A stretch of DNA of 62,378 bases from a virus (Duplodnaviria > Caudoviricetes), in IMG/VR virus record IMGVR_UViG_3300033148_010415, positions 1-62,378 of that record, one strand, 5' to 3'. The notes under the pieces are model-generated. The model was given only the letters and a program-made list of their open reading frames with translations, ran no database searches and had not been told where the DNA came from. This document shows, one piece after another, positions 2,164-61,816 of this stretch (within the stretch, counting starts at the first letter, position 1; each line of letters begins with the position of its first letter). Made by a program: the position numbers and the translations under genes.

Positions 2164-2442
2164 TTACTCGGCCGGGATATGTTGCACCGTTCCGGCTATG
2201 CCGTCATCTTCCAGGGGGTCATACTCCTCCTCTACCGCAGCCTCGGGCGTCTGCTGACCCGGCGTTGACAGGCAGAAACGGGTATAATCCACCGCCATGA
2301 TGCGATCCAGCAGCCGGGCGCGTTCCCGGGCCCATCCCCTGCGCTCCCCGGCGGCTCGCTCCCGCTCGCGGACCAGAAGGCCCAGAAGACACAGCCCGAT
2401 AACAGACAATGAGCCAATCGCCACAATCATAGCTTCCTGCAT
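2164..2442 (-). CDS. Small membrane-anchored protein of the outer packaging operon
   Basis: 92 aa with N-terminal hydrophobic helix; start overlaps the terL stop. Confidence 0.7.
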   Translation of the reverse strand: MQEAMIVAIGSLSVIGLCLLGLLVRERERAAGERRGWARERARLLDRIMAVDYTRFCLSTPGQQTPEAAVEEEYDPLEDDGIAGTVQHIPAE

Positions 2443-2875
2443 TAGATAATCCCTCCCATATGATCATCCATCACCCCGACTTTCTGAGCGGCAAGCTCAT
2501 CGGGGTGCCCTCGAGCTTTTTGCTGCAGAGTAAGATATTCGGGTTTTTCCTTTTCCAGGGGGCCGGGTCGGCTAGCCAAAAAATACCGAAGGGCATCCAG
2601 CGCGTGGTCGTCCACGCCCAGAGGCTCCTCCGGCTGGTTCCTGGCCCCCATCTCCGCGCTCTGGAGTTGCCTCCACCGATACCGGGGAAACTCTCGGATA
2701 AGGTTCTCGCATGAGCCGAAAACGAAAAGCCTCGGAGATCCCTTCTCCCCCGTCAGGGGATGAATGCGCTCCGGGTCCACCCGCAGGTATTCACCCACAC
2801 GGTTGATTCCAGCCCTGAGTCCGTTGGCGGCGGGCACGGTATCGATCCCGTGATCCAGGTACTCGGCCACCACAG
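2442..2875 (-). pseudogene. terL: 3' fragment of the interrupted terminase large subunit (C-terminal nuclease part) of the outer element
   Basis: AEYLDHGIDTVPAANGLRAGINRV...CENLIREFPRYRW...DDHALDALRY; joins in frame to the 60847-61816 fragment through the att core. Confidence 0.9.
2867..2875 (+). repeat. Left att core CCACCACAG
   Basis: Identical to 60847-60855; similarity extends as CCACCACAGnnnTGTAyCC. Confidence 0.88.
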
Positions 2876-2948
2876 CAATGTACCCCTTTTCCAGGAGGTT
2901 CAAAGAAATTACAAAACATCGATGTTTACATGATTCTCGAAAAACGTC

Positions 2949-3020
2949 GGGGTAAAATCCGGAGTAAATTATTACGATTTTGCAGCGTTTTGAAAATGTT
3001 TTTACCCCGGATTTTACCCC
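2949..3020. promoter_or_regulatory. Putative integrase arm-type sites (two pairs of TTTAC[C/T]CC, 12-bp spacing, inverted to each other)
   Basis: GGGGTAAA 2949, GGAGTAAA 2961, TTTACCCC 3001 and 3013; same motif pair at 60765 and 60777. Confidence 0.7.
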
Positions 3021-3034
3021 AAAGGTGATTGCGA

Positions 3035-3253
3035 ATGAGGCCACGATATAACTCCGAAAAGATGATTAAAGAGCAGGGAGGAATTATCAAGCAGACAAGC
3101 ACATCCCAGCCAAACAGATGTGGAATTTGCGGTGGACCCATTCTGACGGCATCCATCTGGACGGCAGAAAGGGGGTATGTGCATATAAACGAAAAGGATT
3201 GCCTGAAACAGAAGTACAAGGTTTTGGATGAAGACGACGGGTATTGCGATTGA
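3035..3253 (+). CDS. Small hypothetical protein with CxxC motif
   Basis: CGICGG...H...C; SD-like AAGGTG upstream. Confidence 0.55.
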   Translation: MRPRYNSEKMIKEQGGIIKQTSTSQPNRCGICGGPILTASIWTAERGYVHINEKDCLKQKYKVLDEDDGYCD

Positions 3254-3265
3254 GCCGCCGCGTGC

Positions 3266-3574
3266 TTGAAATCCATAGGAGGTATGCGAGCCATTGATGG
3301 TGTGAAACCCAAAAATATGGTGCGAGCCACTGCGATTTTGAAATCCAGAAGCGATGCGACCAATATGGAAAAACCCAAAAAACCACGAAAATCAGGACCC
3401 CATCAGCTAGATAGTAGAAAAGCTCTTTTCCGCCGAACGGAGAAGACAAAACGAAGGTGCTTGAAATGCAACCGGATATTTCTGTCCGAAGGAAAGCATA
3501 ACCGGTTGTGCATTAGGTGTATCGATTGGAATCGGCATGTAATTACAGGGGAAGAATATGGAGGGTTGATCTAA
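3266..3574 (+). CDS. Zinc-finger protein (possible late regulator); start uncertain
   Basis: RRCLKCNRIFLSEGKHNRLCIRC two-CxxC motif. Confidence 0.6.
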   Translation: MKSIGGMRAIDGVKPKNMVRATAILKSRSDATNMEKPKKPRKSGPHQLDSRKALFRRTEKTKRRCLKCNRIFLSEGKHNRLCIRCIDWNRHVITGEEYGGLI

Positions 3575-3580
3575 AAAAAA

Positions 3581-3615
3581 GGGGGGGAAGGGGGACTATA
3601 GGGGGATAGGGGGGG
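3581..3615 (+). other. G-quadruplex-capable tract G7-AA-G5-ACTATA-G5-ATA-G7
   Basis: Four G-runs of at least 5 with short loops, intergenic, followed by an AT-rich stretch. Confidence 0.55.
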
Positions 3616-3712
3616 AATATAATAATAAGAGTATATATATAAGTAATTTATAAGTAAGGGAAAAACCGGAACCAGGTAATTTCTAACTCATTGAATTTAT
3701 AGGAGGTATTGG

Positions 3713-4480
3713 TTGTTACACAAATTTAAAAGAGATTCAAGATATAGCAGAAACGGTAAGGGAGTCCGGATGGCATACGATAGAATCGCTTCGTCATACG
3801 ATCTCCATTATCGAGACAATTTCTCAGTTGCAGAAAACGCTGTTATCAAACAATATCTTGCCAGAAAGGGTTTTACCAATGGTAGGGTCCTGGATTTGGG
3901 ATGTGGAACCGGCCTGTTGATAACAATGTTCAATATCCCTCCGACCTATTACGCCGGCCTGGATGTTTCAGAAGGGATGTTGACCGTGGCTCGGAGGAAG
4001 TTTCCGAATCATCACTTCGTGCAGGCGAGTATGGATAACATCCCTTTTGGAGATGCGGAATTCGACCGGGTGATATGTCTGTTCGGCGGTATAAGCTATG
4101 TGAAATCGCATCATCTCAGCGCTACGATCCGTGAGATATTTCGAGTCCTGCGTGCCGGCGGAAGGCTGTTTATCATGGCGTATGGGAAAGCTCATTACTG
4201 CAAAAAAGAAGATTATATTTTACATGATCAGAAAATAGAGAGGCATCTTTTCACGAACAGAGAATTATTTGACCTGGTTTTTCCTTTATTCCCAGTATCA
4301 AAGGTCATTGGGATGAATTCAGCGGTTGAGTTATATCGTCGGGCTTCTCTATCAATTAAATCCTTAATGTTTCTTATGCAAGCCGAGATTGATACTGTGG
4401 GCCATGAGATACCGGATTTTTGCCAATATCAAATAGCGATAGGAGAAAAGATAATTGGGGAAACGAGTTTTAAACATTAA
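3713..4480 (+). CDS. Class I SAM-dependent methyltransferase (alternative start 3770)
   Basis: VLDLGCGTG, GLDVSEGML, RVLRAGG motifs. Confidence 0.85.
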   Translation: MLHKFKRDSRYSRNGKGVRMAYDRIASSYDLHYRDNFSVAENAVIKQYLARKGFTNGRVLDLGCGTGLLITMFNIPPTYYAGLDVSEGMLTVARRKFPNHHFVQASMDNIPFGDAEFDRVICLFGGISYVKSHHLSATIREIFRVLRAGGRLFIMAYGKAHYCKKEDYILHDQKIERHLFTNRELFDLVFPLFPVSKVIGMNSAVELYRRASLSIKSLMFLMQAEIDTVGHEIPDFCQYQIAIGEKIIGETSFKH

Positions 4481-5603
4481 CGTATTTGATGCTGCAATAG
4501 ACAGGTTGATCAGGTTATATCGAGACGGCCATAGGGTCGTTGTTTCTTTTTCCGCAGGTAAAGACTCCGGAATATGCTTGGAGCTTGCCATTATAGCAGC
4601 CAGTGTAATGGAAAAGCTTCCAGTGGATGTAGTCATGCGGGATGAGGAGATCATGTATCCAGGAACATTCGAGTATGCTGAAAGAATGGCGAAACGCCCG
4701 GAAGTGAAATTTCACTGGATGATAGCCAATCAACCTGTAGTTAATTGTTTTAACCGTAAACAACCGTACTTTTGGGTGTTTGATCCTCTCCTAAAACCGG
4801 AGCAATGGGTCCGTCAGCCGCCGGATTTCGCAGTCCATATCGAAGAGAAATGTATTGAGGGAATGATTACAAAAGAGCGGTTTCCCCCCGATCCTGGAAA
4901 AGAGCTTATAACTATTATCGGACTTCGGACTCAGGAAAGTATGCTGAGAAGATTAGGGGTTTTCTCTTCTCAGGGATACATTACAAAATCTAACCGATAC
5001 GGCTGCCGATATGCCCGGCCTATCTATGACTGGTCTGATGGAGATGTATGGAAAGCGGTTTGGGATAACAAATGGGACTACAATGAGGCTTACGATGTTA
5101 TGCACCGCCTAGGGGTTCATAGAAACAGGCTCAGGATCGCTCCCCCGACCCTGACAGCTGCAGGAATCGATGAGTTGAAAATAGCCTCCCAGGCATGGCC
5201 GAAGTGGTTCGACAAGGTTTGCGAACGGCTCCCTGGAGTGAGAACGGCAGCCATGTTCGGACGGCGGGCCGTAGAACCGAATCGAAGGCTCGGGGAGACC
5301 TGGGAGCAAGTCTTTAAGCGCGAATGCTTGGAAGAAGCACCGGATTGGATCAGGGAGAGGGCTCAAAGAGTTATGGGAAGAGCATTGCAGGAGCATAATC
5401 GGCATTCTACCCATCCCTTTCCGCAAAGCGATAAATGTAATAGATGCCAAATGATTGGTTCCTGGAAGCATCTGGCAAAGATCATGTATATGGGAGATCC
5501 TTTCGCGATGAAAACGAGCGGGGGTTCTGGAAGGCTAACAGCTATTGAACCCGAATTTTTCAGACCAGGAGCAGGAACATGGGGAGGGAAACCAACATGG
5601 TGA
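4455..5603 (+). CDS. PAPS-reductase-fold PP-loop protein (IbrA/YbdN-like)
   Basis: SFSAGKDS PP-loop, IGLRTQES..R, PIYDWSDGDVW; next to a ParB-N gene. Confidence 0.85.
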   Translation: MGKRVLNINVFDAAIDRLIRLYRDGHRVVVSFSAGKDSGICLELAIIAASVMEKLPVDVVMRDEEIMYPGTFEYAERMAKRPEVKFHWMIANQPVVNCFNRKQPYFWVFDPLLKPEQWVRQPPDFAVHIEEKCIEGMITKERFPPDPGKELITIIGLRTQESMLRRLGVFSSQGYITKSNRYGCRYARPIYDWSDGDVWKAVWDNKWDYNEAYDVMHRLGVHRNRLRIAPPTLTAAGIDELKIASQAWPKWFDKVCERLPGVRTAAMFGRRAVEPNRRLGETWEQVFKRECLEEAPDWIRERAQRVMGRALQEHNRHSTHPFPQSDKCNRCQMIGSWKHLAKIMYMGDPFAMKTSGGSGRLTAIEPEFFRPGAGTWGGKPTW

Positions 5604-5902
5604 AACCGAAAAAAAGAGAAATACAAAGAGTTAGAAATTATATCGCATCCGTACATTGGAAATTCGCCAAGACTTACGCAAAAACATGGCCTCACGAATA
5701 TACGGTAAAGGACTGGAACCCTGATAAAAAAAAAGAATTTGAATTTTTTGTCATGTTTATTCGAGAGTATGGTTATCCTGAGATGTTTTTCAGAAAACAC
5801 CATATTTACTATAACTTAGATGGATATAAATACTGGACAATGGGAGCACCGTTGGAGCAAACCATCATCATAAACAGGGTAGTATTAGAGGAGGTAAGAT
5901 GA
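5597..5902 (+). CDS. Hypothetical protein (WKFAKT..PHEY motif)
   Basis: ORF overlapping both neighbours, SD present. Confidence 0.7.
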   Translation: MVKPKKREIQRVRNYIASVHWKFAKTYAKTWPHEYTVKDWNPDKKKEFEFFVMFIREYGYPEMFFRKHHIYYNLDGYKYWTMGAPLEQTIIINRVVLEEVR

Positions 5903-6714
5903 AAGATAAAGGCCGTAAAGCAATTGAGAAAAAGAACCAGGTACTGGAGAAATTGAGTATTGAGTATGTCCCTGTAAATTCCATTCAACCGAACAAGTAC
6001 AATCCTAATCGCCAGAGTGAACATGATTTTGAGCTTCTCTTAAGGTCCATGCGCGAAGATGGATTTACTCAGCCTATTGTCTGTCAAAAAAAGACGAGAG
6101 AGATCGTAGATGGGGAGCATCGATGGCGCGCAGCGATGGAATTAGGATTCAAAGAAATCCCGGTGGTTTTTGTGGATATGACGCCGGAGCAAATGAGGAT
6201 TTCCACACTCCGGCATAACCGGGCCAGAGGTTCGGAGGATATTGAACTATCGGCACAGGTCTTAAGAGACCTTCAGCAGTTAGGAGCACTTGACTGGGCT
6301 CAGGATTCGCTGATGATAACGGATACGGAACTGAACCGTCTCCTGGAAGATATTTCAGCACCTGAAGCCCTTGCTGGAGAGGAATTCTCGCAAGCCTGGC
6401 TACCGGATAACGTAAATCAAGAGGATATAGAGGGGATCGAATCAAGAACGGTATCCGATGTATCCAGCGAATCGACAGTTGAAACTTTCATGTCTAAAGA
6501 TGCAATCATGAAAGCCAGGGAGCGGGAAAAGCAAATCAAAGAAGCCAAAACCCTGGAAGAACGTGAGATGGCTCAAAAAGATCGATCCCTTTACCGGATT
6601 TCACTTATTTTTTCAGGGGACGAGGCGGATATGGTTAAATCCGTATTAGGAAAGGCTCCTGCGGATAAAATCCTAACGTGGTGCAAACAAGAATATAAGG
6701 CGAAGAATAATTAA
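5899..6714 (+). CDS. ParB/Srx N-terminal domain protein (IbrB/YbdM-like)
   Basis: PNKYNPN, GFTQPIV, IVDGEHRW, TLRHNRARG. Confidence 0.85.
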   Translation: MKDKGRKAIEKKNQVLEKLSIEYVPVNSIQPNKYNPNRQSEHDFELLLRSMREDGFTQPIVCQKKTREIVDGEHRWRAAMELGFKEIPVVFVDMTPEQMRISTLRHNRARGSEDIELSAQVLRDLQQLGALDWAQDSLMITDTELNRLLEDISAPEALAGEEFSQAWLPDNVNQEDIEGIESRTVSDVSSESTVETFMSKDAIMKAREREKQIKEAKTLEEREMAQKDRSLYRISLIFSGDEADMVKSVLGKAPADKILTWCKQEYKAKNN

Positions 6715-7388
6715 TGGAACCCTGGGAACGACAAAAGGGAGAGCGGTCAAGAGCTTATAGCGCATTCGTATATTACCGCGATATGGGCCCCAAACGAAGC
6801 CTTAAAAAAATGGCTACTGAAACAGGTCGGTCTCTTTTCCCTTTACAGCGATTTTCAAAAAAATACAACTGGGTAGCCCGTGCAACCGCCTGGGATGAAG
6901 AAGTAGATCGTCGCCGGCGGGAAGCGCAGATAAAAGAAATTGAAGAAATGAGCAAACGCCAAGCCCAGCAGGCTCAAGCGATAAACCAAGCTATCATGAT
7001 TCCGGTGATGGCCTTCTTGGAACGCTTGAAAAAGTCTCAGAGGGAAAAAGGCGCTGAAGCAATAGACAGCTTGATGAATATGCTGGGAACATCTGATTTG
7101 CTCGATCTGGTTATTAAGATAGGTCATGTCTGGCCTCATATAATGAGGGCCGAACGGCTTGCACGAGGAGAATCCACGGAAGCCGTCGAACAAAAAGTAT
7201 CTGCAAAAATACGGGTAGTGGAGGAAGAGATTGCCTTTCAACGTCTTATCAGAGACGAGGATAGCAGGCAGTTGCTATGCGAAGTTTACAGACGAATTGT
7301 TGAGTGCGAGGATGATGCCCGCAGGACTGGCTCGTTTAGCCAGTCGGAAAACATGGCAACTTCCGAGGCATCTATCAGCACTGAATAA
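6714..7388 (+). CDS. terS: Terminase small subunit
   Basis: WERQKGERSRAYSAFVYYRDMG.KRSL...WVARATAWD; immediately upstream of terL. Confidence 0.75.
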   Translation: MEPWERQKGERSRAYSAFVYYRDMGPKRSLKKMATETGRSLFPLQRFSKKYNWVARATAWDEEVDRRRREAQIKEIEEMSKRQAQQAQAINQAIMIPVMAFLERLKKSQREKGAEAIDSLMNMLGTSDLLDLVIKIGHVWPHIMRAERLARGESTEAVEQKVSAKIRVVEEEIAFQRLIRDEDSRQLLCEVYRRIVECEDDARRTGSFSQSENMATSEASISTE

Positions 7389-8661
7389 CTTTTTACTGGC
7401 AGCATCTGAAGGGATAATCAAGAGGTTAATGATCTTTATACCTCCAAGGCACGGGAAATCGGAGTTCATATCCAAATACTTCCCGGCCTGGTATATCGGT
7501 AAATATCCTGATCGCAGGATTATCCTTACAAGTTATGAAGCGGCTATTGCATCATCCTGGGGCCGGAAGGCCAGGGATATTCTTTTAGAGTATGGAGAGC
7601 AAGTATTCGACATGAAGGTTACCCAGGATGTAAAAGCCTCGAACTGGTGGGAAACTCGAAACGGCGGCGGTATGATGACAGCGGGTTCTTTAGGGCCTAT
7701 TACCGGTAAGGGAGCCAATTTATTCATTATTGATGACCCCATCAAGAATTTCCAGGAAGCATTAAGTTCCACGCATCGGGAAAACCTTTGGGAATGGTAT
7801 AGATCAACAGCGTATACGCGGCTGGAACCTGGTGCTTCCCTGATAATTGCGATGGCAAGGTGGGATCGTGATGATATCGCAGGAAGGATTTTAAAAGAAA
7901 TCGGTGATAATTGGGTGATATTGAAGTTACCGGCTATCGCTACAAGGCATGAAAAAGAGACCGGACGTAAACCCGGAGATCCGCTTTGGCCCGAAAGGTT
8001 CCCACTTCAAACTCTTAACGAAATTAAAAATCAGGTGCAAACGTATTGGTGGGAAGCATTATATCAACAAAGCCCGCTTGAGCGAAGGGGAACAGGGATT
8101 TTTCAGCCCCAATGGTTTGAAATCATTGACCCTGGCAATGTATCAACCAGCTTGACCAAGGTCCGTTATTGGGATTTAGCAGCGACACCGGCAAGCGATG
8201 GGGAGGACCCTGATTGGACCGTAGGGGTACTAATGGGTATCAGGAATAATATCTATTATGTACTGGATATTCGGAGAGACAGAAATACTCCGGCACGGAT
8301 AGAAGCTTTAGTAAGAAAAACAGCGGAAATAGACGGTACATCTGTACGTATTTTTATGGAGCAGGAACCCGGAGCAAGCGGTGTCAATACTATCGATCAT
8401 TACAGACGTAATATTCTGCAAGGATTCAGTTTCCGGGGAGATAAAGTATCAGGCTCGAAAATATTAAGAGCTATGCCGTTCAGCGCAGCAGCCGAAGCTG
8501 GACGGATTAAATTAGTCAAAGCTTCTTGGAATAAAGATTTTCTTGAGGAATTAACCAATTTCTCAGGAAACGAGACTGAACATGATGATCAGGTTGATGC
8601 TGCTTGCGGTGCTTTTGAAAAACTATCAACTCCGAAAAATCTATTTGTATGGGGGAGATAA
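7312..8661 (+). CDS. terL: Terminase large subunit of the inner prophage
   Basis: PPRHGKS Walker A, IIDDP Walker B, YWDLA and HDDQVDA nuclease motifs. Confidence 0.93.
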   Translation: MMPAGLARLASRKTWQLPRHLSALNNFLLAASEGIIKRLMIFIPPRHGKSEFISKYFPAWYIGKYPDRRIILTSYEAAIASSWGRKARDILLEYGEQVFDMKVTQDVKASNWWETRNGGGMMTAGSLGPITGKGANLFIIDDPIKNFQEALSSTHRENLWEWYRSTAYTRLEPGASLIIAMARWDRDDIAGRILKEIGDNWVILKLPAIATRHEKETGRKPGDPLWPERFPLQTLNEIKNQVQTYWWEALYQQSPLERRGTGIFQPQWFEIIDPGNVSTSLTKVRYWDLAATPASDGEDPDWTVGVLMGIRNNIYYVLDIRRDRNTPARIEALVRKTAEIDGTSVRIFMEQEPGASGVNTIDHYRRNILQGFSFRGDKVSGSKILRAMPFSAAAEAGRIKLVKASWNKDFLEELTNFSGNETEHDDQVDAACGAFEKLSTPKNLFVWGR

Positions 8662-8864
8662 TTTTGACTGAAGAACTACTCAGGGGATGGAAAAAAATAG
8701 CACGATACATGGGTGTATCAGAATCCAAAGCAAGACGATGGCGGCGGGAAATGATTAACGATCGAGTAATACGTTGCATGCTCGAAGGACGGCCTCCGCG
8801 GAGAATATATCATGCGTTTGGCTCCGATTTGAAAGAATTTATTAAGAAAAAATGTATTTTATGA
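8649..8864 (+). CDS. Small helix-turn-helix DNA-binding protein
   Basis: LRGWKKIARYMGVSESKARRW. Confidence 0.7.
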   Translation: MGEIILTEELLRGWKKIARYMGVSESKARRWRREMINDRVIRCMLEGRPPRRIYHAFGSDLKEFIKKKCIL

Positions 8865-9007
8865 AAAAAATAGCAGGGTTATAACTGCACATATAATCAT
8901 CATATATGATTTCCTTCCTATAACTATCTTAAAACCATCCTTATGACCACTCTAATTATCGTTTTATAAAATCCAGTTAAGCCATATATAATTAGAATAA
9001 AAGGGTT

Positions 9008-9088
9008 CTGCCTGATGTACTGATCAGCATCACGCAGCTAAGAAACAAGGGCGGCTGGTGGGAGCCCACCCTCCATCAGTCGCTTTTT
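9008..9088 (+). promoter_or_regulatory. Two-hairpin leader ending in a terminator-like stem upstream of portal (element A)
   Basis: CTGCCTGATG..CATCACGCAG hairpin, A-rich linker, GCGGCTGGTGG..CCATCAGTCGC-TTTTT. Confidence 0.55.
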
Positions 9089-9107
9089 GTTTGCCCTGGA
9101 GTCGATT

Positions 9108-50758: not shown

Positions 50759-50763
50759 ACAAA

Positions 50764-51845: not shown

Positions 51846-51961
51846 AAGGAGGAGAGAATGAGTGCATCGCTGACATTGTTGAAATTACTGGAAAAATATT
51901 CCATCCAGGAAATCATGGCAGCGCTCGAAAAACTCCGGGAGCGATATGAAAGGAAGACAAA

Positions 51962-52405: not shown

Positions 52406-52462
52406 TTTCTGTCCCGGCCTGGGAGCCGCTGGTAAGGCTCCGGGCCGGGTGAAGGAGGCGTT

Positions 52463-53539: not shown

Positions 53540-53566
53540 CGTAACGCCGTTGGTAACGGAGGAATT

Positions 53567-53764: not shown

Positions 53765-53888
53765 AACGAAGGGGAGGGCGCCATTTAGCAAAAAATACGT
53801 ATTGGTGCCCAAGATGTAAAGAGTACTGGGTGGCAGGGCTTTATGTAGAAAAAAACCCTGTTAACGCAAAACGCAAAATTTGTAAAGC

Positions 53889-55108: not shown

Positions 55109-55113
55109 ATGAT

Positions 55114-55225
55114 ATGCCAGCGGCGGCGTGGTGGGAACACCGGGGGAGTTGCTAACTCCGGACCTCCTGCTCGTGGTACCGGAGACCAGACGAGCAAACC
55201 AGGTTCAAATCCTGGCCGCTGGCAT
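55114..55225 (+). ncRNA. tRNA-like RNA (canonical T arm, extended acceptor stem, GCT loop, long extra arm, no CCA)
   Basis: ATGCCAGCGG/CCGCTGGCAT; CCAGG-TTCAAAT-CCTGG; GGAG-TTGCTAA-CTCC. Confidence 0.6.
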
Positions 55226-55245
55226 TTAAATATCACAAGGAGTGC

Positions 55246-55437
55246 GTGATGTCTGTTGACCTTCGCTTAGAAATTGAAAGGGCTATAGGGTGCGACAAGA
55301 ATGATTTTACCCCAGAGCATCTCCAGCTATTACTCATTATCGCAAAGGGGATGCTCTGGACTCGCGTGTTGTACTTAAAAGCACAGCTATTGGCCGAGGA
55401 AATCAAGGAAGACATGCGGATTTTTGAATTTAAATAG
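55246..55437 (+). CDS. Small hypothetical protein
   Basis: SD AAGGAG. Confidence 0.5.
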   Translation: MMSVDLRLEIERAIGCDKNDFTPEHLQLLLIIAKGMLWTRVLYLKAQLLAEEIKEDMRIFEFK

Positions 55438-55448
55438 GAGGTATCAAA

Positions 55449-56786
55449 ATGGAAGATCAAAGTTATCCGGCTCCGATTGGCCCAGGGGGAATTGAATTAA
55501 TAAATCAAGGTAAAACGCTAACAAAAATAGAGGCGGGATATCAGACGGCTATCGCTGTACAGAGGCCAAGAAAGTTAAAAGAAGTTACCGAAAGATGTTT
55601 ATCCGAAGCGGATATAGCAGGCGAAGCGTTTTACTGGACCTGGCAGGTCTGGGACAATAAAGAGAAAAAATATAAGACGGTTGAGGGACCCAGCATCGAT
55701 CTGGCCATGACCGTTGCTCGGAATTTTGGCAACTGTGCAGTTCCGACCGAAGTTGTGGAAATAGAAGGCGAATGGATATTTCGGGCTGCTTTCGTGGATT
55801 TAGAAACAGGATTTACTTTTCAACGAGTCTATCGAGTACCCAAGTCCGAAGCTCCCGGAAAATTTGATCAGGACCGCTGGGATGATATGACTTTTCAGAG
55901 AGCACAATCTAAGGCTCAGCGAAACGTCATCATCAAGGGCGCTCCCCCGTGGCTTATACAACAGACCATGGATAGGGCCAAAGAAGCGGCGTTGAAAGGC
56001 ATCGGCAAGATGGGCAAGGAAACGGCGAAAACAAAAGTACTCCAGTTTTTCATGCGCTATCAAGTCACAAAGGAAATGCTTGAAAAGCTCATGGATGAAT
56101 CGATAGGCAATTGGACAGAAGAAACACTAATGAAACTACGAGGTATAGCGCGAACTCTTCAAGATGGACAGGAGACCGTTGAGACGATCTTCGGTCATGC
56201 TAAATCGGAATTTGACGAAGGCGAAAAAACAATATTAGTAGCCGCTTTCTGGTCAATACTAAACGAGTCCGCCGGTATCAAGCCTGATGACGAGCAAATG
56301 CTCGCATACATCAAAGAAACCGCTCAATTTGTTGACAATAAAAACTATATCGAGGGCGAATCGGAAAAGAAGTTGATGGCTGATTTAAGTAAAGCTTTCC
56401 AGGCAGATCCATCGCAGGTTGAGTTGTTCGTAAAAGCATTTCGGTTGAAACATCAAAATGAGACCGAATCAAAACCAGAGGAACACTCAACACCCAAACG
56501 TGGCCGTAAAAAGCAAGAAACCCCCGAACCTCCGCAAGAAACACAGTCCGAATCAATAGATGAGGAAAAGAACGCCCAGGCTCATGAGTTCGTTGAACGC
56601 ATTCGTCCAGACCTCCGGGAGCACATTAAGGAAAAGCTCCCGTACTATAACGATGATCAGATCATGCTAATGATGAGTAGCAAAGGCATGCTCTATCCGG
56701 AGAAAATGACGGAAAAACAGATAATGGATATCATGACATATGTCAATGAGCTCTATCACCAGAGGAATATACCTGATGACGATTAA
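55449..56786 (+). CDS. Hypothetical protein, possible single-strand annealing recombinase
   Basis: VEGPSIDLA..ARNFGN, FVDLETG, AQSKAQRNVI; near the exonuclease gene. Confidence 0.5.
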   Translation: MEDQSYPAPIGPGGIELINQGKTLTKIEAGYQTAIAVQRPRKLKEVTERCLSEADIAGEAFYWTWQVWDNKEKKYKTVEGPSIDLAMTVARNFGNCAVPTEVVEIEGEWIFRAAFVDLETGFTFQRVYRVPKSEAPGKFDQDRWDDMTFQRAQSKAQRNVIIKGAPPWLIQQTMDRAKEAALKGIGKMGKETAKTKVLQFFMRYQVTKEMLEKLMDESIGNWTEETLMKLRGIARTLQDGQETVETIFGHAKSEFDEGEKTILVAAFWSILNESAGIKPDDEQMLAYIKETAQFVDNKNYIEGESEKKLMADLSKAFQADPSQVELFVKAFRLKHQNETESKPEEHSTPKRGRKKQETPEPPQETQSESIDEEKNAQAHEFVERIRPDLREHIKEKLPYYNDDQIMLMMSSKGMLYPEKMTEKQIMDIMTYVNELYHQRNIPDDD

Positions 56787-56974
56787 ATCTTACGCCCGCC
56801 TCCGAGGCGTCAATATCGGGGCATGATTCTCCTTTCAATAGCCCGCTGGCAGGCCGGTCTGAATAGCCTGCTCCCCCAGCTGATCTTAGGTAGCCGGATG
56901 TGGGAGGAGCTTCCCTGATAAATCCTAACAAGAGAACGGGCTATGGAAATAGTCCACGAACCGGAGAAACATGA

Positions 56975-57895
56975 ATGGATATAAGATTAGCGGTATCGTT
57001 CCAAAATCATCCTAAAAGAAAAAAACTTAAAAAGAAATTAGGCGCCGAAGGCGTGCTCGGATTCATAGACTTGATGCTTTCAGTAAGGGAAAACAAGCCT
57101 GATGGCATATTGACGGGTTGGGATGAGGATGATATCGCGCTGGCCGCGCAATGGGAAGGAGATGTTAACATTTTCGTCAATACCTTACTCGAATTGAAAC
57201 TCATTGAAAGAAACGGTTCGGGAGAGTATCTGATTCACGATTGGGAGGAACACAATCCCTGGGCAGCACATGCAAAAAAGAGATCGGAGCAGGCGAGGGA
57301 GGCTGCAAAGATAGGTTGGGAAAAACGTAAACAGAATAAACCTGATATGCGAAATGCATGCGAAACGCATACGAATAGCATACGAAACGCATGCGAAACG
57401 CATGCTGATCGCAATGCCCCATCTCCATCTCCATCTCCATCTCCTTCTCCTTCTCCAAAAGATACAGGGGTTGTCACCCCTGTTATCCCCGAAAACGGGG
57501 ACGATGCAAAAATCCCATCATGTCCTCACGGGAAAATCATCGACCTTTATCATGAAATCCTGCCAGAACACCCTAGAGTCGACAAGGACGATTGGAGAGA
57601 AGATCGGGCTCAATTTCTACGTACCAGGTGGAGGGAAAAACCTGAACGTCAATCCCTCGATTGGTGGCGCGGTTATTTTATGAGTGTGAGGACTTATCCT
57701 TGGCTTATGGGAAACAATGACAGCGGTTGGATGCCCGACCTGGAGTGGCTTGTAAGACCAAAAAATTTCAGAAAGGTTAACGAGGGGTTTTACCAGTCCA
57801 GGGCTTCACCGTTGAAGGGGAAATACGGCGAAAAGGCTCTCAAGTCGGTACAGAATATCAAGAATTGGGTGAATAAACCGGAGGAGCCGCCATGA
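56975..57895 (+). CDS. Phage replication initiator
   Basis: F.NHPKRKKL N-terminus, IHDWEEHN, internal iterons, PDLEWLVRPKNF.KV.EG.Y. Confidence 0.85.
   Translation: MDIRLAVSFQNHPKRKKLKKKLGAEGVLGFIDLMLSVRENKPDGILTGWDEDDIALAAQWEGDVNIFVNTLLELKLIERNGSGEYLIHDWEEHNPWAAHAKKRSEQAREAAKIGWEKRKQNKPDMRNACETHTNSIRNACETHADRNAPSPSPSPSPSPSPKDTGVVTPVIPENGDDAKIPSCPHGKIIDLYHEILPEHPRVDKDDWREDRAQFLRTRWREKPERQSLDWWRGYFMSVRTYPWLMGNNDSGWMPDLEWLVRPKNFRKVNEGFYQSRASPLKGKYGEKALKSVQNIKNWVNKPEEPP
57347..57405 (+). repeat. Replication-origin iterons (about five 11-bp GCAT[A/G]CGAAAC-type repeats)
   Basis: ATGCGAAATGCATGCGAAACGCATACGAATAGCATACGAAACGCATGCGAAACGCATGC inside the initiator gene. Confidence 0.7.
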
Positions 57896-58542
57896 GAAAT
57901 CGAAAAGAATTCGCTGAAACGATGATTGCCATAGCGGCTATGTTCGAGAAGGTATTATCCGAAGCTGTAATCGATATCTATTGGCAATCGTTCAGAGAAT
58001 ACGATGATTCCGTTGTAAAGGAAGCTCTCATGAGAGGTGTCAAGACCGTATGGAAATTTTTCCCCAAGCCGGCGGAGGTGGTGGAGCTTATTGAAGGCTC
58101 TCCTCAAGCAAAACAAACAATGGCTTGGATGCTTCTCGTTGAAGGGATCAAGAAAGCAGGCGCCAAGGAGTCGGTAAGATTTCAAGACCCGATAATTCAT
58201 ACCATTGTGGAACTGTGGGGCGGATGGACGCAAGTTTGCTATGAGTATGATTTAGACGCCCGGGATTTTAAATTCAAAGAGAAGGATTTCAAGACTCTGT
58301 ATCAATACTTCTTATCCAGATGCGAAAAACATCCAGAATATTTACCCGGTGGTGCGGAAAAGCATAACAAGAAATACAGCTTTCTGGATGCGATCAAGCC
58401 GCCATTGGAGATAGGGTTTTCGGATGGCACTATTATGATAACAAGAAAGCCTGAAATAACCGATGGAAGAGGGGGAGATAATCAACAAAATGTCATAGAT
58501 CAAGCTTCCCGTGAGGAAAGCATAGAACTTGCAGGGGGATGA
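57892..58542 (+). CDS. Helicase loader/replication P-like protein
   Basis: FFPKPAEV, SVRFQDPIIH..V..WGGW; coupled to the initiator. Confidence 0.7.
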   Translation: MRNRKEFAETMIAIAAMFEKVLSEAVIDIYWQSFREYDDSVVKEALMRGVKTVWKFFPKPAEVVELIEGSPQAKQTMAWMLLVEGIKKAGAKESVRFQDPIIHTIVELWGGWTQVCYEYDLDARDFKFKEKDFKTLYQYFLSRCEKHPEYLPGGAEKHNKKYSFLDAIKPPLEIGFSDGTIMITRKPEITDGRGGDNQQNVIDQASREESIELAGG

Positions 58543-58543
58543 A

Positions 58544-58672
58544 ATGATTGAGTCTTGGCAATCCTTCATATTCGGTTTTCTGAGCGCCATAGTTTTAATC
58601 ATCGTCATGATTTGCTGGTTCATGGTGAGATTGAACCGAATCGATGATGATTATGATAACCCCTGGAAATGA
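58544..58672 (+). CDS. Small single-TM protein (42 aa)
   Basis: MIESWQSFIFGFLSAIVLIIVMICWF; fills the gap between genes. Confidence 0.45.
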   Translation: MIESWQSFIFGFLSAIVLIIVMICWFMVRLNRIDDDYDNPWK

Positions 58673-58673
58673 G

Positions 58674-59291
58674 ATGAAAATCCTTGGTATTGATCCAGGC
58701 CAAACAACCGGATGGGCAGTAATTGAAATCGGAAAAGACAGGATCATCAAACCTATAGACTTCGGCACTATTCCGGTTTTAAGCAACCATCCTCACGCTC
58801 CGCTTGAGTGCGTCTATGATTGGCTCAGAGATGAGTATCACGTCAACGAGAGATTTCAGGTTTTGGTTTATGAAGAGGCTCCAACCAAGGGACGGTTCGT
58901 CAGCTATTGGCAGCACCAGCTCCTGGGAGTAGTTAAGCTTTTCATCTACCAGGAGCCTGAATTGAAATCATACCGTTATCACGCTGTGACGGTCAAAGCA
59001 ACTCTAGGGTGCGGGCGTATGACAAAGGCCCAGATGCAGACGAGGATATCAGCTTTCCTGGGGATACAGAGGATCAAATCTCCGGACGCGGCTGATGCGA
59101 TGGCTCTGGCCTGTACGTGTGCGTTGAGGATATACGGCGCTCAGTGGCCGCAAGGGATAGGACAGATCGAGGCACCCAGGGCAAGGGGCGGCAGGAAGAA
59201 AGCGGACAGCCTCACGCCGGAGCAGATGGCGGAAGCGATCCGCACCGGGCGGGCGGTGTGGCAGGGCAAGAGGATCGTGGGGATCAAGTAA
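58674..59291 (+). CDS. ruvC: RuvC-like Holliday junction resolvase
   Basis: ILGIDPG..TGWAV, YEE, VKA..G.GR.TK, DAADAMALA. Confidence 0.85.
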   Translation: MKILGIDPGQTTGWAVIEIGKDRIIKPIDFGTIPVLSNHPHAPLECVYDWLRDEYHVNERFQVLVYEEAPTKGRFVSYWQHQLLGVVKLFIYQEPELKSYRYHAVTVKATLGCGRMTKAQMQTRISAFLGIQRIKSPDAADAMALACTCALRIYGAQWPQGIGQIEAPRARGGRKKADSLTPEQMAEAIRTGRAVWQGKRIVGIK

Positions 59292-59334
59292 ACAGGCAAA
59301 GTCAGAGAAATCATTTGTTTAATATAGTGAATCA

Positions 59335-59610
59335 ATGAGTATCAACATAAATCCAACCGAATGGCTCAACCGGAACGCCTTTTATTGCGAAAAACATAAA
59401 GCTCGTATTAGCCTAAAAGCATGTAAAAAAATTAGAAAAGAAGCGAAAAAGCGAGGTTCAGCATGGAGCTGGGGAAACGGCTATCTTATTCCAGGGGAAT
59501 ATCATCCGTGCAAAAGCTGTCCAGGCCCTAAACCGAAATGGACAAAAGAAGAAGTAGAAAAAATAGCGGATAGAATTGTCAGGCAGTCGATGAGAGATTT
59601 AAGGTTATGA
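59335..59610 (+). CDS. Cys-containing hypothetical protein
   Basis: FYCEKHKARISLKAC..CKSC. Confidence 0.6.
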   Translation: MSININPTEWLNRNAFYCEKHKARISLKACKKIRKEAKKRGSAWSWGNGYLIPGEYHPCKSCPGPKPKWTKEEVEKIADRIVRQSMRDLRL

Positions 59611-59927
59611 CCATCCTTACCCCTCAAGAAGTAGCAAGCATGTTGAACAAATCCACCCGATGGGTTTATATTCATGCCGGTGATCTGGGAGCGGCCCGGA
59701 TTGGAGGCTCATGGATTTTCACACAGGAGGGGTTAAAAAATGCCATACAGAGAGGGCAAGAGATGGCGCGGATGCGTGATGCACGCCGGACGGCGGTATC
59801 AAAAGCTGTTTCAGTCAAAGAAAGAAGCCCTGGCTTGGGAGTACGAGAAACGGAAAGAGATGATGTCAGGGACAGAAAAAAAAGAGACCGTCATAACATT
59901 GTTCGAGTTGTGCGACCGGTACCTTGA
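59607..59927 (+). CDS. xis: Excisionase-like HTH protein
   Basis: LTPQEVASMLNKSTRWVY...RIGGSWIF; directly upstream of and overlapping int. Confidence 0.75.
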   Translation: MTILTPQEVASMLNKSTRWVYIHAGDLGAARIGGSWIFTQEGLKNAIQRGQEMARMRDARRTAVSKAVSVKERSPGLGVRETERDDVRDRKKRDRHNIVRVVRPVP

Positions 59928-60807
59928 TTATGCTGAAAGGTTTCATAAGAGGACATATAGTCAGAAGCGTCTGGTATGTAGAAAAATTATAGCAGAATGG
60001 GAGCCGGATCGCGAGGCTGACAGTATAACACCGGCGATGGTCTTGGAATATTTGGATAGACAAGCCAGGGAGAGGACGATCTGTGCATCGAACATGGACC
60101 GAAAAGAACTGATGGCCTTGTGGCGCTGGGGAGCTGAGTTCTGTGGACTAAAACATAATCCCATAGCCATGGTAAAGCCGAGAGCTTATGAAAGGATACC
60201 TCAATATACGCCGCCGCAAGAGGATGTTCTGAAAGTCCTTGCCGTGGCCACCAGGGAGGAAGGGGTTTTTCTCGATGCGTATTTGCAGACGGGCGCGAGG
60301 AAATCGGAGATATTCAGGTGGACTTGGATTGAGGATGTCAATTTCGAGAGACGAGAGGTTCGACTGGGCACGAGGAAAACTAAGGATGGTTCGATGGAAT
60401 ACGAATGGATACCGATGAGCGATAGTTTGTTCAAATCCCTGATGTGGTGGTGGCAAAACCGGCCTGTCAAGGATTCACCTTATGTATTTTGCAGGATTGG
60501 AGCAACCGACAGGGGAGAGCCTTTTACTGTGAGAAGGAATTTCCTGAAAAGATTGTGCTTGAGGGCGGGAGTTAAGGCATTTGGGTATCATGCCCTCAGG
60601 CGTTACGTGGCCTCTGTTCTGGCGGATACCCATAAGGTGAGCGCTAAGACGATTCAACGTATTCTCAGGCATAAGAACGTGAGCACGACTGAGAGATATA
60701 TCCAAAACATCAACAAGGATTTGCAGGCCATTATCAATTTGCTTTCAAGGGAAAATAAAACTGATTTACCCCTGGATTTACCCCAGAGCAAAAGGGATGA
60801 TGTTTAA
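59740..60807 (+). CDS. int: Tyrosine integrase
   Basis: TGARKSE (R), HALRR (HxxR), LRHKNVSTTERY (H, Y); 40 bp from the att core. Confidence 0.95.
   Translation: MPYREGKRWRGCVMHAGRRYQKLFQSKKEALAWEYEKRKEMMSGTEKKETVITLFELCDRYLDYAERFHKRTYSQKRLVCRKIIAEWEPDREADSITPAMVLEYLDRQARERTICASNMDRKELMALWRWGAEFCGLKHNPIAMVKPRAYERIPQYTPPQEDVLKVLAVATREEGVFLDAYLQTGARKSEIFRWTWIEDVNFERREVRLGTRKTKDGSMEYEWIPMSDSLFKSLMWWWQNRPVKDSPYVFCRIGATDRGEPFTVRRNFLKRLCLRAGVKAFGYHALRRYVASVLADTHKVSAKTIQRILRHKNVSTTERYIQNINKDLQAIINLLSRENKTDLPLDLPQSKRDDV
60765..60784 (+). promoter_or_regulatory. Putative integrase arm-type site pair TTTACCCC x2
   Basis: 12-bp spacing, same as the left-arm pairs. Confidence 0.7.
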
Positions 60808-60820
60808 CTATTTGAAAACA

Positions 60821-61816
60821 TTAACATATTTTTTTGATGTCATGCTCCACCACAGAGCTGTATCCAAGGGCGGAGGATTGCCTGGCGGACGGGTCGATCA
60901 CGGTATAGACGTAGCGTTCGGCTCCGGACATTTCAGAGACGGCACGGGCGTTTTCGCTGACAATTCGTCCGGCCCGGTAATATTCCCGGTACACGAATAC
61001 GTTCCCGTCGGTATCCAGCGCAAACCAGAGACAGCATGTAGGGTTGGTCCGGCCGGGATCGATGGATCGATATCGCGGCCATCCCTCAGGGATGCGGAAC
61101 GGCTGGATCACATGGACCCCGGGGTCGAACCCGCCGTAAATCTGTCCCTCGAACACATCCCAGGAGCCATACACATAGCGCCGGACCCAGACCTCCGGGT
61201 AACTGCGCATAAGCATGGGCACATAGTCCGGGGGCAGATGGGGATTCTCAAGGCTGGCGGCCTGCACCATATGATACTCCGGGTTGCCTTCTTTTATGAA
61301 GCGCCGCCAGATCCAGTTGTGGCCCTCGGGATTGCCCGTCAAAAAGCCCTGACGCACAGGTACGCCCTCCAGACGCAAACGGCTCTGAAGGATCAAAAAC
61401 ATATTCTCTGAGATCTCCTCCGCCTGATCCACATAAAACCACCCTAAGTTCAGGCTGAGCAGGTCCGAGGGCGTGTCCAGATGGCGGAAGAGAATCTCGG
61501 ATCCATTGGAAAAGCGCAGCAGGTTCTCAACTTTATTGAACTTGCTCACGAGGGGGTGTGCGGCGACGATGTCCTCATTGCACCCGAGCAGTTCGAAGAA
61601 TGTTTTCCGGGTTGTCGCCCTCAACTGCGGCTGGGATAGGCGACCCATGACCCCCACGTTGCCCGGATGCTCCATGCTTAACCGCAACGCCTTGATGCAC
61701 CCCGCCAGGGTCTTGCCGTTTCCGAAGCCCCCGAAAAAAGCGCAAAACCGGGCATTGCTGAAGACGAACTCATCCTGTTGCGGAAGCAGTCGAATTTCCA
61801 TGACCTCGTATTGCAT
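60821..61816 (-). pseudogene. terL: 5' fragment of the interrupted terminase large subunit (ATPase domain and start of nuclease domain)
   Basis: GGFGNGKT Walker A, YVDQAEE Walker B, TGNP, SIDPG, VIDPSA; last 8 aa come from prophage sequence. Confidence 0.92.
60847..60855 (+). repeat. Right att core CCACCACAG
   Basis: Identical to 2867-2875; GC content rises abruptly beyond it. Confidence 0.88.

What the first reader, a model, noticed from the sequence alone, without database searches (positions are those of the whole stretch)
2442..61816. A complete prophage integrated inside the terminase gene of another phage-like element
Seen: the outer terL is cut into a 323-aa 5' part and a 141-aa 3' part separated by 57,980 bp. 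Both junctions carry CCACCACAG, and joining them gives an uninterrupted frame (VIDPSARQSSALGYSSVV|AEYLDHGIDTVPAAN, about 464 aa). Neither half nor terS nor portal shows decay. The predicted attP is TGCT-CCACCAC-AGCA, a 7-bp overlap flanked by inverted repeats as expected for a tyrosine integrase. Established: prophages can act as reversible gene switches (Listeria comK, Bacillus skin and SPbeta). Inference: the target here is the packaging motor of a second phage or GTA-like element, so lysogeny would disable that element's DNA packaging and excision would restore it. This would be either phage-on-phage interference or an excision-gated switch.
Basis: partly seen in the sequence, partly recalled or inferred. 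Interest (0 to 1): 0.9.

Follow-up and report, generated by a model that had tools for sequence, protein, structure and literature searches.

The report
Prophage splitting a domesticated terminase gene
A complete 58-kb temperate phage sits exactly inside the DNA-packaging (large terminase) gene of an older, chromosome-resident phage-like gene cluster of an uncultured deltaproteobacterium, and near-identical genomes without the insertion show the intact gene, so the insertion is real, recent and precise but looks like a one-off rather than an evolved switch.

Summary
CCACCACAG occurs only at 2867-2875 and 60847-60855. Between the copies lies a 57,980-bp, ~46% GC siphovirus-like prophage with integrase, Xis, CI-like repressor and its own terminase, portal, capsid and tail genes. 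The ~60% GC flanks carry terS, a split terL, and a P22-like portal.

A MAG contig (G002:C34, 98.5-99% identical) has the same flanks joined through one core copy and encodes an intact 464-aa terL. That is a natural empty attB.

Two results change the interpretation.
- The outer element is not an active rival phage. It is a ~19-20-kb cluster of packaging, head and unknown (tail?) genes between host respiratory genes. It is syntenic in two genomes of one order, with dS like the host flanks and dN/dS 0.05-0.34, so it looks domesticated, GTA-like or defective.
- None of 52 integrase relatives sits in a terminase gene; most abut tRNA-Glu. The window's attP has lost the tRNA piece, so its core is new.

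The inner phage lies antiparallel to terL, and one of three contigs is occupied. I read this as a reversible insertional knockout. No evidence supports a dedicated switch. Satellites in terminase genes and prophages in prophages are already known.

The parts
61920..62378 (-). Outer small-terminase-like gene (152 aa). The window ends at its ATG.
   Evidence: ORF. Weak HTH_Tnp_1_2 match, E 2e-5, below the cutoff. Orthologue at L078 8975-9433.
60848..61816 (-). Outer terL 5' part (323 aa: ATPase domain and the start of the nuclease domain). The ORF runs on for 8 phage-derived codons to a stop at 60821.
   Evidence: Terminase_3 and Terminase_6N. 100% identical to residues 1-323 of P0121 by BLASTP.
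60847..60855 (.). Core copy at the integrase-proximal junction (attR in this orientation).
60763..60784 (+). Doubled candidate arm-type site (GATTTACCCC, twice), about 77 nt from the overlap centre, inside the 3' end of int.
   Evidence: 2 matches against 0.15 expected. A similar ATTTACCC pair lies before the tRNA in L069.
59740..60807 (+). Tyrosine integrase of the inner phage (355 aa).
   Evidence: Phage_integrase, E 2e-17. R187, K213, R287, H311 and Y320 are invariant, and H284 nearly invariant, in alignment A1.
59607..59927 (+). Xis-like HTH protein overlapping the int start.
   Evidence: HTH_17, E 6e-7. Homologue directly upstream of int in 21 of 52 related loci.
2876..60846 (+). Inner prophage body, ~46% GC. 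Genes include ParB-like, terL 7231-8661, portal 9108-10523, MuF-ART fusion 10438-13011, protease/scaffold 13533-15596, major capsid protein (MCP) 16253-17227, tape-measure protein (TMP) 24767-26695, J-like tail protein 28286-31705, CI-like repressor 49894-50664(-), replication O-like 56975-57895 and RuvC-like 58644-59291.
2867..2875 (.). Core copy at the distal junction (attL in this orientation).
2950..3020 (.). P' arm. An inverted candidate arm site lies at 2950-2959. A doubled co-oriented motif lies at 2998-3020, about 139 nt from the overlap centre.
   Evidence: The stretch is 81% conserved with G002:C104.
2445..2867 (-). Outer terL 3' part (141 aa: the rest of the nuclease domain).
   Evidence: Weak Terminase_3C match. 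Colinear with P0121 residues 324-464.
2164..2442 (-). Outer 92-aa ORF between terL and the portal gene.
   Evidence: Orthologues in G002 and G006.
89..2080 (-). Outer portal (663 aa, P22-like).
   Evidence: P22_portal, E 1.6e-15. 658 of 663 aa identical to the G002 portal.

Best explanation
What happened. A temperate siphovirus-like phage of about 58 kb integrated into the middle of terL. Its lambda-type tyrosine integrase did this, acting with an Xis-like HTH protein and an attP that has doubled arm motifs on both sides of a 7-bp overlap.

The target. The terL gene belongs to a chromosomal phage-derived cluster of about 19-20 kb. The cluster holds terS, terL, portal, variable cargo, scaffold?, major capsid protein and about ten unknown genes. 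It lies in an uncultured 'deltaproteobacterial' lineage and appears vertically inherited and under purifying selection. I read it as domesticated, GTA-like, or a functional defective prophage.

Mechanism. Strand exchange fell within the 9 bp shared by attP and attB. attP carries no replacement for the 3' end of terL. While the phage is resident, the cluster can therefore make only a TerL that ends just after the first nuclease strand. Precise excision would restore the gene.

Specificity. The integrase belongs to a family whose usual target is the 3' half of tRNA-Glu. This phage's attP has a different core, so the terL site is either a newly acquired attB or a secondary one.

Shown: the insertion, its precision, the empty site, the attP architecture, the family's tRNA habit, and the synteny and selection on the cluster.

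Inferred: that the cluster is functional or domesticated, that the event is recent, and that it is an opportunistic knockout rather than an evolved switch.
For: Junctions and empty site. Intact 464-aa terL on two other contigs.

The inner phage is complete.

attP architecture. Arm motifs. The P' arm is conserved with a G002 element.

Integrase family. Of 52 loci, 23 have tRNA-Glu within 400 nt by ARAGORN, 2 more start inside the same tRNA sequence, and 7 carry only the tRNA 3' half. None of the 52 has a terL or portal match. The window's integrase is nested in the 99/96 clade and has a long end branch. Its attP has no tRNA-Glu remnant: score 7-10 against controls of 29-48.

The outer cluster.
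- Host cytochrome genes lie immediately upstream of terS.
- The major capsid protein and further genes lie on G002:C60, which overlaps the window start.
- The host right flank follows.
- The same locus is syntenic in G006.
- Cluster genes have dS 0.43-0.76 and dN/dS 0.05-0.34 (excluding the two fast-diverging distal genes). Host flanks have dS 0.60-1.13 and dN/dS 0.10-0.20.
- 17 of 18 G006 cluster genes have orthologues in G002; most are full-length single matches.
- No integrase, repressor or replication family was found in or beside the cluster.

No decay in the window's copy.
Against: - Only one occupied contig exists and no reads were available, so neither excision nor recency is demonstrated.
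- The closest integrase relatives (58-64% identity) sit on short contigs that I could not inspect. The 52 loci examined are at most 62% identical over the full length, so they may not predict this enzyme's specificity.
- No better attB was found in the 4.8-Mb MAG, so the terL site may be this phage's true primary site.
- attB also shares TGTA.CC just right of the core, which hints at real core-site recognition.
- Domestication rests on two genomes only: 2 of 2 in the order and 2 of 401 in a phylum sample.
- Most cluster genes have no family match, so lysis or regulatory genes could be hidden among them.
- The G002 cluster is joined across two contigs by a 58-nt overlap. The G006 cluster is on one contig.
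Confidence: 0.7

Rival explanations
1. Evolved phage regulatory switch ('active lysogeny'). The inner phage resides in terL of a GTA-like cluster as a controlled interrupter. Regulated, precise excision restores terL and licenses particle production.
For: Excision would restore an intact frame, which exists naturally. The cluster is under purifying selection. The phage has int, Xis and a CI-like repressor. attP has a dedicated non-tRNA core. No better attB was found in G002.
Against: There is a single occurrence, and 2 of 3 near-identical contigs are empty. G006 is also uninterrupted. None of 52 integrase relatives is in a terminase gene. The phage is a full, apparently lytic-competent virus with no sign of being a reduced 'skin'-like remnant. 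Its orientation is antiparallel to terL.
Confidence: 0.12
2. Phage-on-phage interference. The inner phage targets the packaging motor of a competing active prophage to disable it.
For: The disrupted gene is essential for packaging. Mobile elements that target terminase genes of prophages are known (PMC10111431; abstract and passages read).
Against: The outer element is only ~19-20 kb. It is flanked closely by host genes, syntenic in two species, and has no detectable integrase, repressor or replication genes. It is therefore not an autonomous competitor. Bona fide phage relatives of its terL sit on 39-50-kb contigs.
Confidence: 0.08
3. Secondary-site accident in a non-native host. The phage's primary attB lies elsewhere, possibly in another, lower-GC host, and the terL site was used only because it shares the 7-9-bp overlap.
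For: Identity between attP and attB is only 9 bp plus a short patch. The phage's GC (~46%) is 10-15 points below the flanks. The family normally uses long tRNA identity blocks.
Against: No site with longer identity to either attP half was found in G002. There was no exact 13-mer. There were 14 one-mismatch sites against 5 in the control, and none of the 12 fetched and inspected extends further. The 18-mer gave 4 hits against 2 in the control. G002 is an incomplete MAG, and other hosts were not searched.
Confidence: 0.25
4. Assembly chimera that joins two unrelated genomes.
For: The contig comes from a metagenome. No read data were available.
Against: Both junctions fall on one point of one reading frame. 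The flanks are contiguous in independent assemblies. int, Xis and the arm motifs sit where an attP should be. A 9-bp repeat is too short to mislead an assembler (inference).
Confidence: 0.02

Closest known systems
Helper-embedded PICIs (Tommasini, Mageeney & Williams 2023, PMC10111431; abstract, passages and section 19 read)
   Same: A tyrosine-integrase element sits inside a phage late gene, and the paper's sites include the large-terminase cognate (A:Terminase_1:245). The interruption blocks the gene until excision. attP has a doubled motif about 81 bp upstream and 132 bp downstream of the centre; here the distances are about 77 and 139 nt.
   Different: The inner element here is a full 58-kb phage with its own terminase, portal, capsid and tail, not a satellite. 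It is antiparallel to the interrupted gene. The outer element is a ~20-kb cluster without detectable lysogeny or replication genes, not an inducible helper. The integrase family is tRNA-Glu-linked and shows no repeated late-gene tropism (0 of 52). I did not test kinship with the HE-PICI integrase clade.
Prophages integrating into prophages in E. coli (Nakamura et al. 2021, PMC8112680; abstract and passages read)
   Same: Full-size temperate phages integrate inside resident prophages. All host prophages there were apparently defective.
   Different: In that study the attB sequences lie in effector-locus regions and were copied from chromosomal genes. 'Terminase' occurs 0 times in the text. Here attB is an internal coding site of terL, and no chromosomal look-alike was found in G002.
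Phage regulatory switches and intervening elements (Listeria comK phage, Bacillus skin/sigK, SPbeta/spsM; recalled, not read here)
   Same: Disruptive integration in a coding gene without a replacement sequence. Precise excision restores the frame.
   Different: Those elements are fixed or common in their species and excise under host developmental control. Here the insertion is polymorphic and unique, and regulation is untested.
Gene transfer agents (review PMC11841831; passages read)
   Same: The outer cluster is a chromosomal head and packaging cluster without detectable replication or lysogeny genes. It is syntenic between species and under purifying selection.
   Different: There is no evidence of particles or of random DNA packaging. 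The terS-like protein has a weak HTH match, whereas the review says GTA TerS proteins lack a DNA-binding domain. The cluster is known from only two genomes. It carries a variable cargo island.

Membership tests
Lambda-type tyrosine-integrase prophage integration | Tyrosine recombinase catalytic domain with the R-K-H-R-H-Y residues | tested here: met
   PF00589, E 2e-17. R187, K213, R287, H311 and Y320 are invariant, and H284 nearly invariant, in A1.
Lambda-type tyrosine-integrase prophage integration | A short direct repeat at both junctions, and an empty attB that equals the two outer flanks joined | tested here: met
Lambda-type tyrosine-integrase prophage integration | Arm-type sites on both sides of the core, and an excisionase-type partner | tested here: met
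   Motif positions are over-represented and conserved in relatives. HTH_17 gene lies upstream of int. Binding itself was not tested.
Helper-embedded satellite (HE-PICI) | Satellite gene content: no full virion module of its own | tested here: not met
   The inner element has its own terL, portal, major capsid protein, tape-measure protein and J-like tail protein.
Helper-embedded satellite (HE-PICI) | Co-oriented with the interrupted late gene of an inducible helper prophage | tested here: not met
   int and the late genes are on + and terL is on -. The outer element lacks detectable lysogeny and replication genes.
Helper-embedded satellite (HE-PICI) | Integrase in the HE-PICI clade | not tested
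   No HE-PICI integrase sequence was fetched.
Phage regulatory switch / intervening element | Precise excision restores an intact functional gene | tested here: met
   Met at sequence level only. The joined frame equals the natural intact terL.
Phage regulatory switch / intervening element | The insertion is conserved across strains or lineages at the same site | tested here: not met
   1 of 3 near-identical contigs is occupied. G006 is empty. 0 of 23 IMG/VR terL relatives is interrupted at that site.
Phage regulatory switch / intervening element | Regulated excision that is uncoupled from lytic growth | not testable with these tools
   No sequencing runs were listed.
Gene transfer agent | Chromosomal structural and packaging cluster without its own replication, lysogeny or integration genes | tested here: inconclusive
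   None was detected by Pfam or PHROGs in or beside the cluster. Most genes have no family match at all.
Gene transfer agent | Vertical inheritance with purifying selection | tested here: met
   Same locus in G002 and G006. dS is like the host flanks, and dN/dS is 0.05-0.34. Only two genomes were available.
Gene transfer agent | Particles that package random host DNA, less than the cluster's own length | not testable with these tools
   Needs particle purification and sequencing.
Gene transfer agent | TerS without a DNA-binding domain (criterion taken from PMC11841831) | tested here: inconclusive
   Weak HTH_Tnp_1_2 match: 25 bits against a cutoff of 27.9.

The most novel reading that the evidence does not exclude
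A temperate phage has retargeted a tRNA-Glu-type integrase module to an internal codon of the terL gene of a domesticated, GTA-like particle cluster in an uncultured sulfate-reducer-like lineage. Lysogeny then reversibly switches off the host's own DNA-packaging particles, and prophage excision switches them back on. This would be a phage-controlled on/off switch for a new, podovirus-derived GTA family.
Probability: 0.12. Interest if true: 0.8.

Novelty: new variant of a known kind. Interest (0 to 1): 0.5.

Why it matters
This is a clean natural example, with occupied and empty alleles at about 99% identity. A full-size temperate phage knocks out the packaging ATPase-nuclease of a resident phage-derived cluster.

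It shows an integrase module from a tRNA-Glu-targeting family working with an entirely different, protein-coding core. That is useful for studying how att specificity shifts.

It also flags a ~20-kb, P22-portal-type cluster that is syntenic and under purifying selection in two species. This cluster is a testable candidate for a new domesticated phage element (GTA-like) outside the Alphaproteobacteria.

The finding does not by itself establish a new regulatory principle.

Tried and rejected
Searches that gave little or nothing:
- Sequencing runs for the outer flank: none was listed.
- Metagenome scan with the outer portal: one 1.8-kb contig at 83% identity (L024). The parent contig was not returned.
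- Integrase in the isolate-phage collection: at most 27% identity. Integrase in IMG/VR: no relative.
- Inner terL in IMG/VR: at most 54% identity, partial. An exact or IUPAC scan for the P' arm in IMG/VR gave 0 hits. The inner phage therefore has no close relative that I could use to see other insertion sites.
- Inner phage DNA in G002: the first 20 kb matched only 90 nt of the P' arm. The remaining 38 kb of the inner phage was not searched against G002.
- Search for a better attB in G002: nothing beyond chance. This does not settle whether the terL site is primary or secondary.
- A tRNA-like reading of the attP core was considered and rejected. ARAGORN finds no tRNA in the window, and there is no tRNA-Glu similarity.
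- Equal spacing between the arm sites and the crossover in the window and in L069 was considered. I make no such claim, because the distances differ (about 62 nt against about 87 nt to the anticodon loop, by my reading).

Tree: 29 rows. 24 of the 52 loci were left out because the integrase match was partial or held stops or X. The window's nearest group has only 84/86 support.

Protein Atlas search for the 817-aa cluster protein: viral hypothetical proteins only, with a weak Phage_stabilise lead at 0.89.

Literature: searches found no report of a full-size prophage inside the terL of a GTA-like cluster. The library is partial, and supplements were not opened.

Not used: structure prediction, fold search, complex prediction, the search of protein representatives.

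Full report
1. THE OBSERVATION

The window is a complete virus record of 62,378 bp. CCACCACAG occurs only at 2867-2875 and 60847-60855 (0.18 expected).

On the minus strand, ORF 61816..60821 encodes 323 terL residues. It ends ...SSVV and then runs 8 more codons into the inserted DNA. ORF 3044..2442 ends with the last 141 terL residues, which begin AEYLDHG. The GTG GTG of the core is in the same frame at both copies.

GC falls from about 0.56-0.63 in the flanks to mostly 0.37-0.55 between the copies.

Pfam gives these matches:
- 5' part: Terminase_3 and Terminase_6N.
- 3' part: a weak Terminase_3C match.
- The 663-aa protein: P22_portal.
- Inner element: a Phage_integrase protein and a second, complete terL.

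2. THE INSERTION IS REAL, AND THE EMPTY SITE EXISTS IN NATURE

I joined the terL halves in a script only. The joined protein has an HSP crossing residue 323/324 in 23 of 23 related IMG/VR loci.

The protein search with the 5' part returned P0121. It is 464 aa long, identical over the query, and reads straight through the predicted junction. Its cluster has three kinds of member:
- the window's 331-aa fragment, on an 84,728-bp contig;
- intact forms on a 16,068-bp contig;
- intact forms on a 13,388-bp contig.

The 13,388-bp contig is G002:C34, from a 4.8-Mb MAG labelled 'Deltaproteobacteria bacterium'. It aligns to window 2875..1 at 98.5% and to window 62378..60847 at 99.0%. The two alignments overlap by exactly the 9-bp core. 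In a 61-nt view, attB equals the left half of attL plus the right half of attR, base for base.

Between the split and the intact terL there are 8 synonymous and 3 nonsynonymous codon differences among 464, with no stops or frameshifts.

Taken together, these results make an assembly chimera very unlikely.

3. THE INNER ELEMENT

It is a full siphovirus-like temperate phage. Its genes are:

| Gene | Coordinates |
|---|---|
| PAPS-reductase-like and ParB-like pair | 4455-6714 |
| terL | 7231-8661 |
| Portal (PF06381) | 9108-10523 |
| MuF-like protein fused to an ADP-ribosyltransferase-like domain | 10438-13011 |
| Protease/scaffold | 13533-15596 |
| Major capsid protein | 16253-17227 |
| Tape-measure protein | 24767-26695 |
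| J-like tail protein | 28286-31705 |
| Accessory island (low GC) | about 40-50 kb |
| CI-like repressor | 49894-50664 (-) |
| Replication O-like | 56975-57895 |
| RuvC-like | 58644-59291 |
| Xis-like HTH_17 | 59607-59927 |
| Integrase | 59740-60807 |

The integrase stop lies 40 nt from the core.

Candidate arm sites:
- GATTTACCCC is doubled at 60763-60784 (2 matches against 0.15 expected).
- A co-oriented doubled variant lies at 2998-3020.
- An inverted copy lies at 2950-2959.

By my count the two doubled motifs lie about 77 nt upstream and 139 nt downstream of the overlap centre.

The P' arm is 81% conserved with a stretch in G002:C104. L069, the closest integrase locus, has an ATTTACCC pair in the equivalent place.

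The recombination therefore used the phage's own attP. The crossover can only be placed somewhere within the 9 shared bases.

4. WHERE THE INTEGRASE FAMILY NORMALLY GOES

The integrase has 426 database relatives, the best at 64% identity. An alignment of 32 of them retrieved 52 loci in species-representative genomes. Most are Desulfobacterota-type MAGs.

What lies just downstream of int in the 52 loci:

| Downstream of int | Loci |
|---|---|
| Complete tRNA-Glu within 400 nt, by ARAGORN | 23 |
| Sequence starts inside the same tRNA (L029, L033) | 2 |
| Only the tRNA-Glu 3' half | 7 |
| tRNA-Asp, tRNA-Val or tRNA-Arg | 5 |
| Contig ends at the gene | 2 |
| No tRNA within 400 nt | 13 |

None of the 52 loci has any match to the outer terL. 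None matches the inner terL, either portal, the major capsid protein, the tape-measure protein, RepO or RuvC. Only the Xis gene is shared, in 21 loci.

In a tree of 29 full-length rows, the window's integrase lies inside a 99/96-supported clade dominated by tRNA-Glu-linked rows. Its nearest rows are L069 and L025, and it has a long end branch (0.62 against 0.22-0.30 for those two).

The window's attP, rebuilt in-script, has no tRNA-Glu remnant. It scores 7-10, which is the level of shuffled sequence. Relatives that carry the tRNA half score 29-48.

This phage therefore uses a new core. The caveat is that the loci examined are at most 62% identical over the full length.

5. IS terL THE PRIMARY SITE?

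attP and attB share the 9-bp core plus TGTA.CC three bases to the right: 20 of 39 positions.

In G002:
- There is no exact match to the 13-nt left half.
- 14 sites match with one mismatch (control 5). None of the 12 that were fetched and inspected extends further.
- 4 sites match the 18-nt right half with up to 3 mismatches (control 2).

No better site was found, but the MAG is incomplete. The question stays open.

6. WHAT THE OUTER ELEMENT IS

Left flank in G002. Upstream of terS on G002:C34 lie host genes: multihaem cytochromes c, cytochrome b561 and class II fructose-bisphosphate aldolase.

Continuation in G002. The window's first 58 nt are identical to the end of G002:C60. C60 continues as follows:
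- a low-GC cargo patch;
- a major capsid protein (phrog_14242, E 1e-59);
- about ten genes with no family match;
- host genes: an MFS transporter, an Hdr-like CCG/4Fe-4S protein and Nuo/Mrp subunits.

The second genome. The only other genome of G002's order in the set, G006, carries the same arrangement on one 48,665-bp contig. The order of features is:
- the same cytochrome genes;
- terS, terL, a 94-aa ORF and the portal;
- a 3.5-kb variable cargo region (TA toxin, HTH-metalloprotease, ClpP-like protein);
- scaffold-like genes and the major capsid protein;
- the same unknown genes;
- small ORFs, a transposase and host genes.

The cluster spans about 19.7 kb.

Selection:
- 17 of 18 G006 cluster genes have orthologues in G002; most are full-length single matches.
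- Cluster genes have dS of 0.43-0.76 against 0.60-1.13 for the host flanks.
- dN/dS is 0.14 for terS, 0.12 for terL, 0.08 for the portal, 0.05 for the major capsid protein and 0.10 for the 817-aa protein.
- The last two genes are only 48-50% identical, as receptor-binding genes often are (that comparison is inference).

What is missing. No integrase, repressor, replication or lysis family was detected in or beside the cluster.

Size comparison. terL relatives that are bona fide phages sit on 39-50-kb contigs.

Distribution. The cluster's capsid gene was found in 2 of 401 genomes sampled from the phylum, and in both genomes of the order.

Conclusion. The outer element is best read as a vertically inherited, selectively maintained phage-derived cluster. 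It may be GTA-like or a functional defective prophage. It is not an autonomous rival phage. I put this at about 0.75, because it rests on two genomes and on many unannotated genes.

7. MECHANISM AND CONSEQUENCE

attP carries no replacement for the terL 3' end. The lysogen can therefore make only a TerL with the ATPase domain and the first nuclease strand, so the cluster cannot complete packaging (inference from terminase biology). Precise Int/Xis excision would regenerate the allele seen in G002.

The inner phage's genes run opposite to terL. Read-through coupling of the kind described for helper-embedded satellites is therefore not available.

Occupancy is 1 of 3 near-identical contigs, and no decay is visible. 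This fits a recent, polymorphic insertion.

8. COMPARISON WITH WHAT IS KNOWN

Helper-embedded PICIs (PMC10111431; abstract, passages and section 19 read). These integrate in 14 sites of lambdoid late genes, including A:Terminase_1:245. They delay the helper's gene until the satellite excises. The present case shares the target class and the attP layout. It fails the satellite and co-orientation features.

Prophages integrating into prophages (PMC8112680; abstract and passages read). These are known in E. coli, and all the host prophages there were defective. Their attB sequences were copied from chromosomal genes, and no terminase gene is involved.

Phage regulatory switches (comK, skin, SPbeta; recalled, not read here). 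These share the disruptive, restorable design, but they are conserved and developmentally controlled.

GTAs (PMC11841831; passages read). These share the cluster's genomic signature. The defining behaviour cannot be tested here, and the terS-like protein has a weak HTH match.

9. VERDICT

This is a prophage in the terL of a phage-derived, probably domesticated cluster. The switch and interference ideas have no support beyond the geometry.

It is a new variant of known kinds and is of moderate interest. The candidate domesticated cluster and the retargeted integrase core are the parts most worth following up.

Noticed in passing
G002:C34 8975-13388 plus G002:C60 about 20000-35375 (L078, L087); G006:C10 (L103-L105): A ~19-20-kb cluster with a P22-portal-type packaging and head module. 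It is syntenic between two genomes of one order. Its dS is like that of the host flanks and its dN/dS is 0.05-0.34. No lysogeny or replication genes were detected. It is a candidate domesticated (GTA-like) element.
   Followed up: partly
window 1-88; end of L078; G002:C60 33021-35375; G006:C10rc 13074-16266: Directly after the outer portal lies a low-GC cargo patch that differs between G002 and G006. In G006 it holds a TA toxin, an HTH-metalloprotease and a ClpP-like protein. The window and G002:C34 both end at the same base there, which suggests population variation that breaks assemblies.
   Followed up: partly
window 10438-13011 (+): An 857-aa protein has a Mu F-like head domain fused to a C-terminal domain that resembles DRAT ADP-ribosyltransferase (Pfam E 1e-7). 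It looks like a MuF-type polymorphic toxin or ejected effector of the inner phage.
   Followed up: no
window 40247-48452 (-), GC 0.37-0.45: A low-GC accessory island in the inner phage. It holds a RelA/SpoT-domain protein (40447-41871), a nuclease (43170-43976), and a SacI-like restriction endonuclease next to a DNA methyltransferase (46418-48452).
   Followed up: no
window 4455-6714 (+): A PAPS-reductase-like protein and a ParB-like nuclease-domain protein lie side by side just upstream of the inner terL. I recall this pairing from IbrA/IbrB-type pairs.
   Followed up: no
L089 (G002:C104 10103-10192): A 90-nt stretch is 81% identical to the inner phage's P' arm, including the arm motifs. No tRNA is nearby. 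It may be the end of a related element at yet another site in G002.
   Followed up: partly
L034, L026, L045, L048, L051, L064, L066: Integrase relatives with no tRNA within 400 nt downstream. One example (L034) lies upstream of a yebC-like and a ruvC-like gene. The family may have shifted targets more than once.
   Followed up: partly
L078 3-500 (+): A partial tyrosine recombinase sits at the far end of G002:C34, 8.5 kb upstream of terS and beyond the host cytochrome and aldolase genes. Its relation to the cluster is unknown.
   Followed up: no
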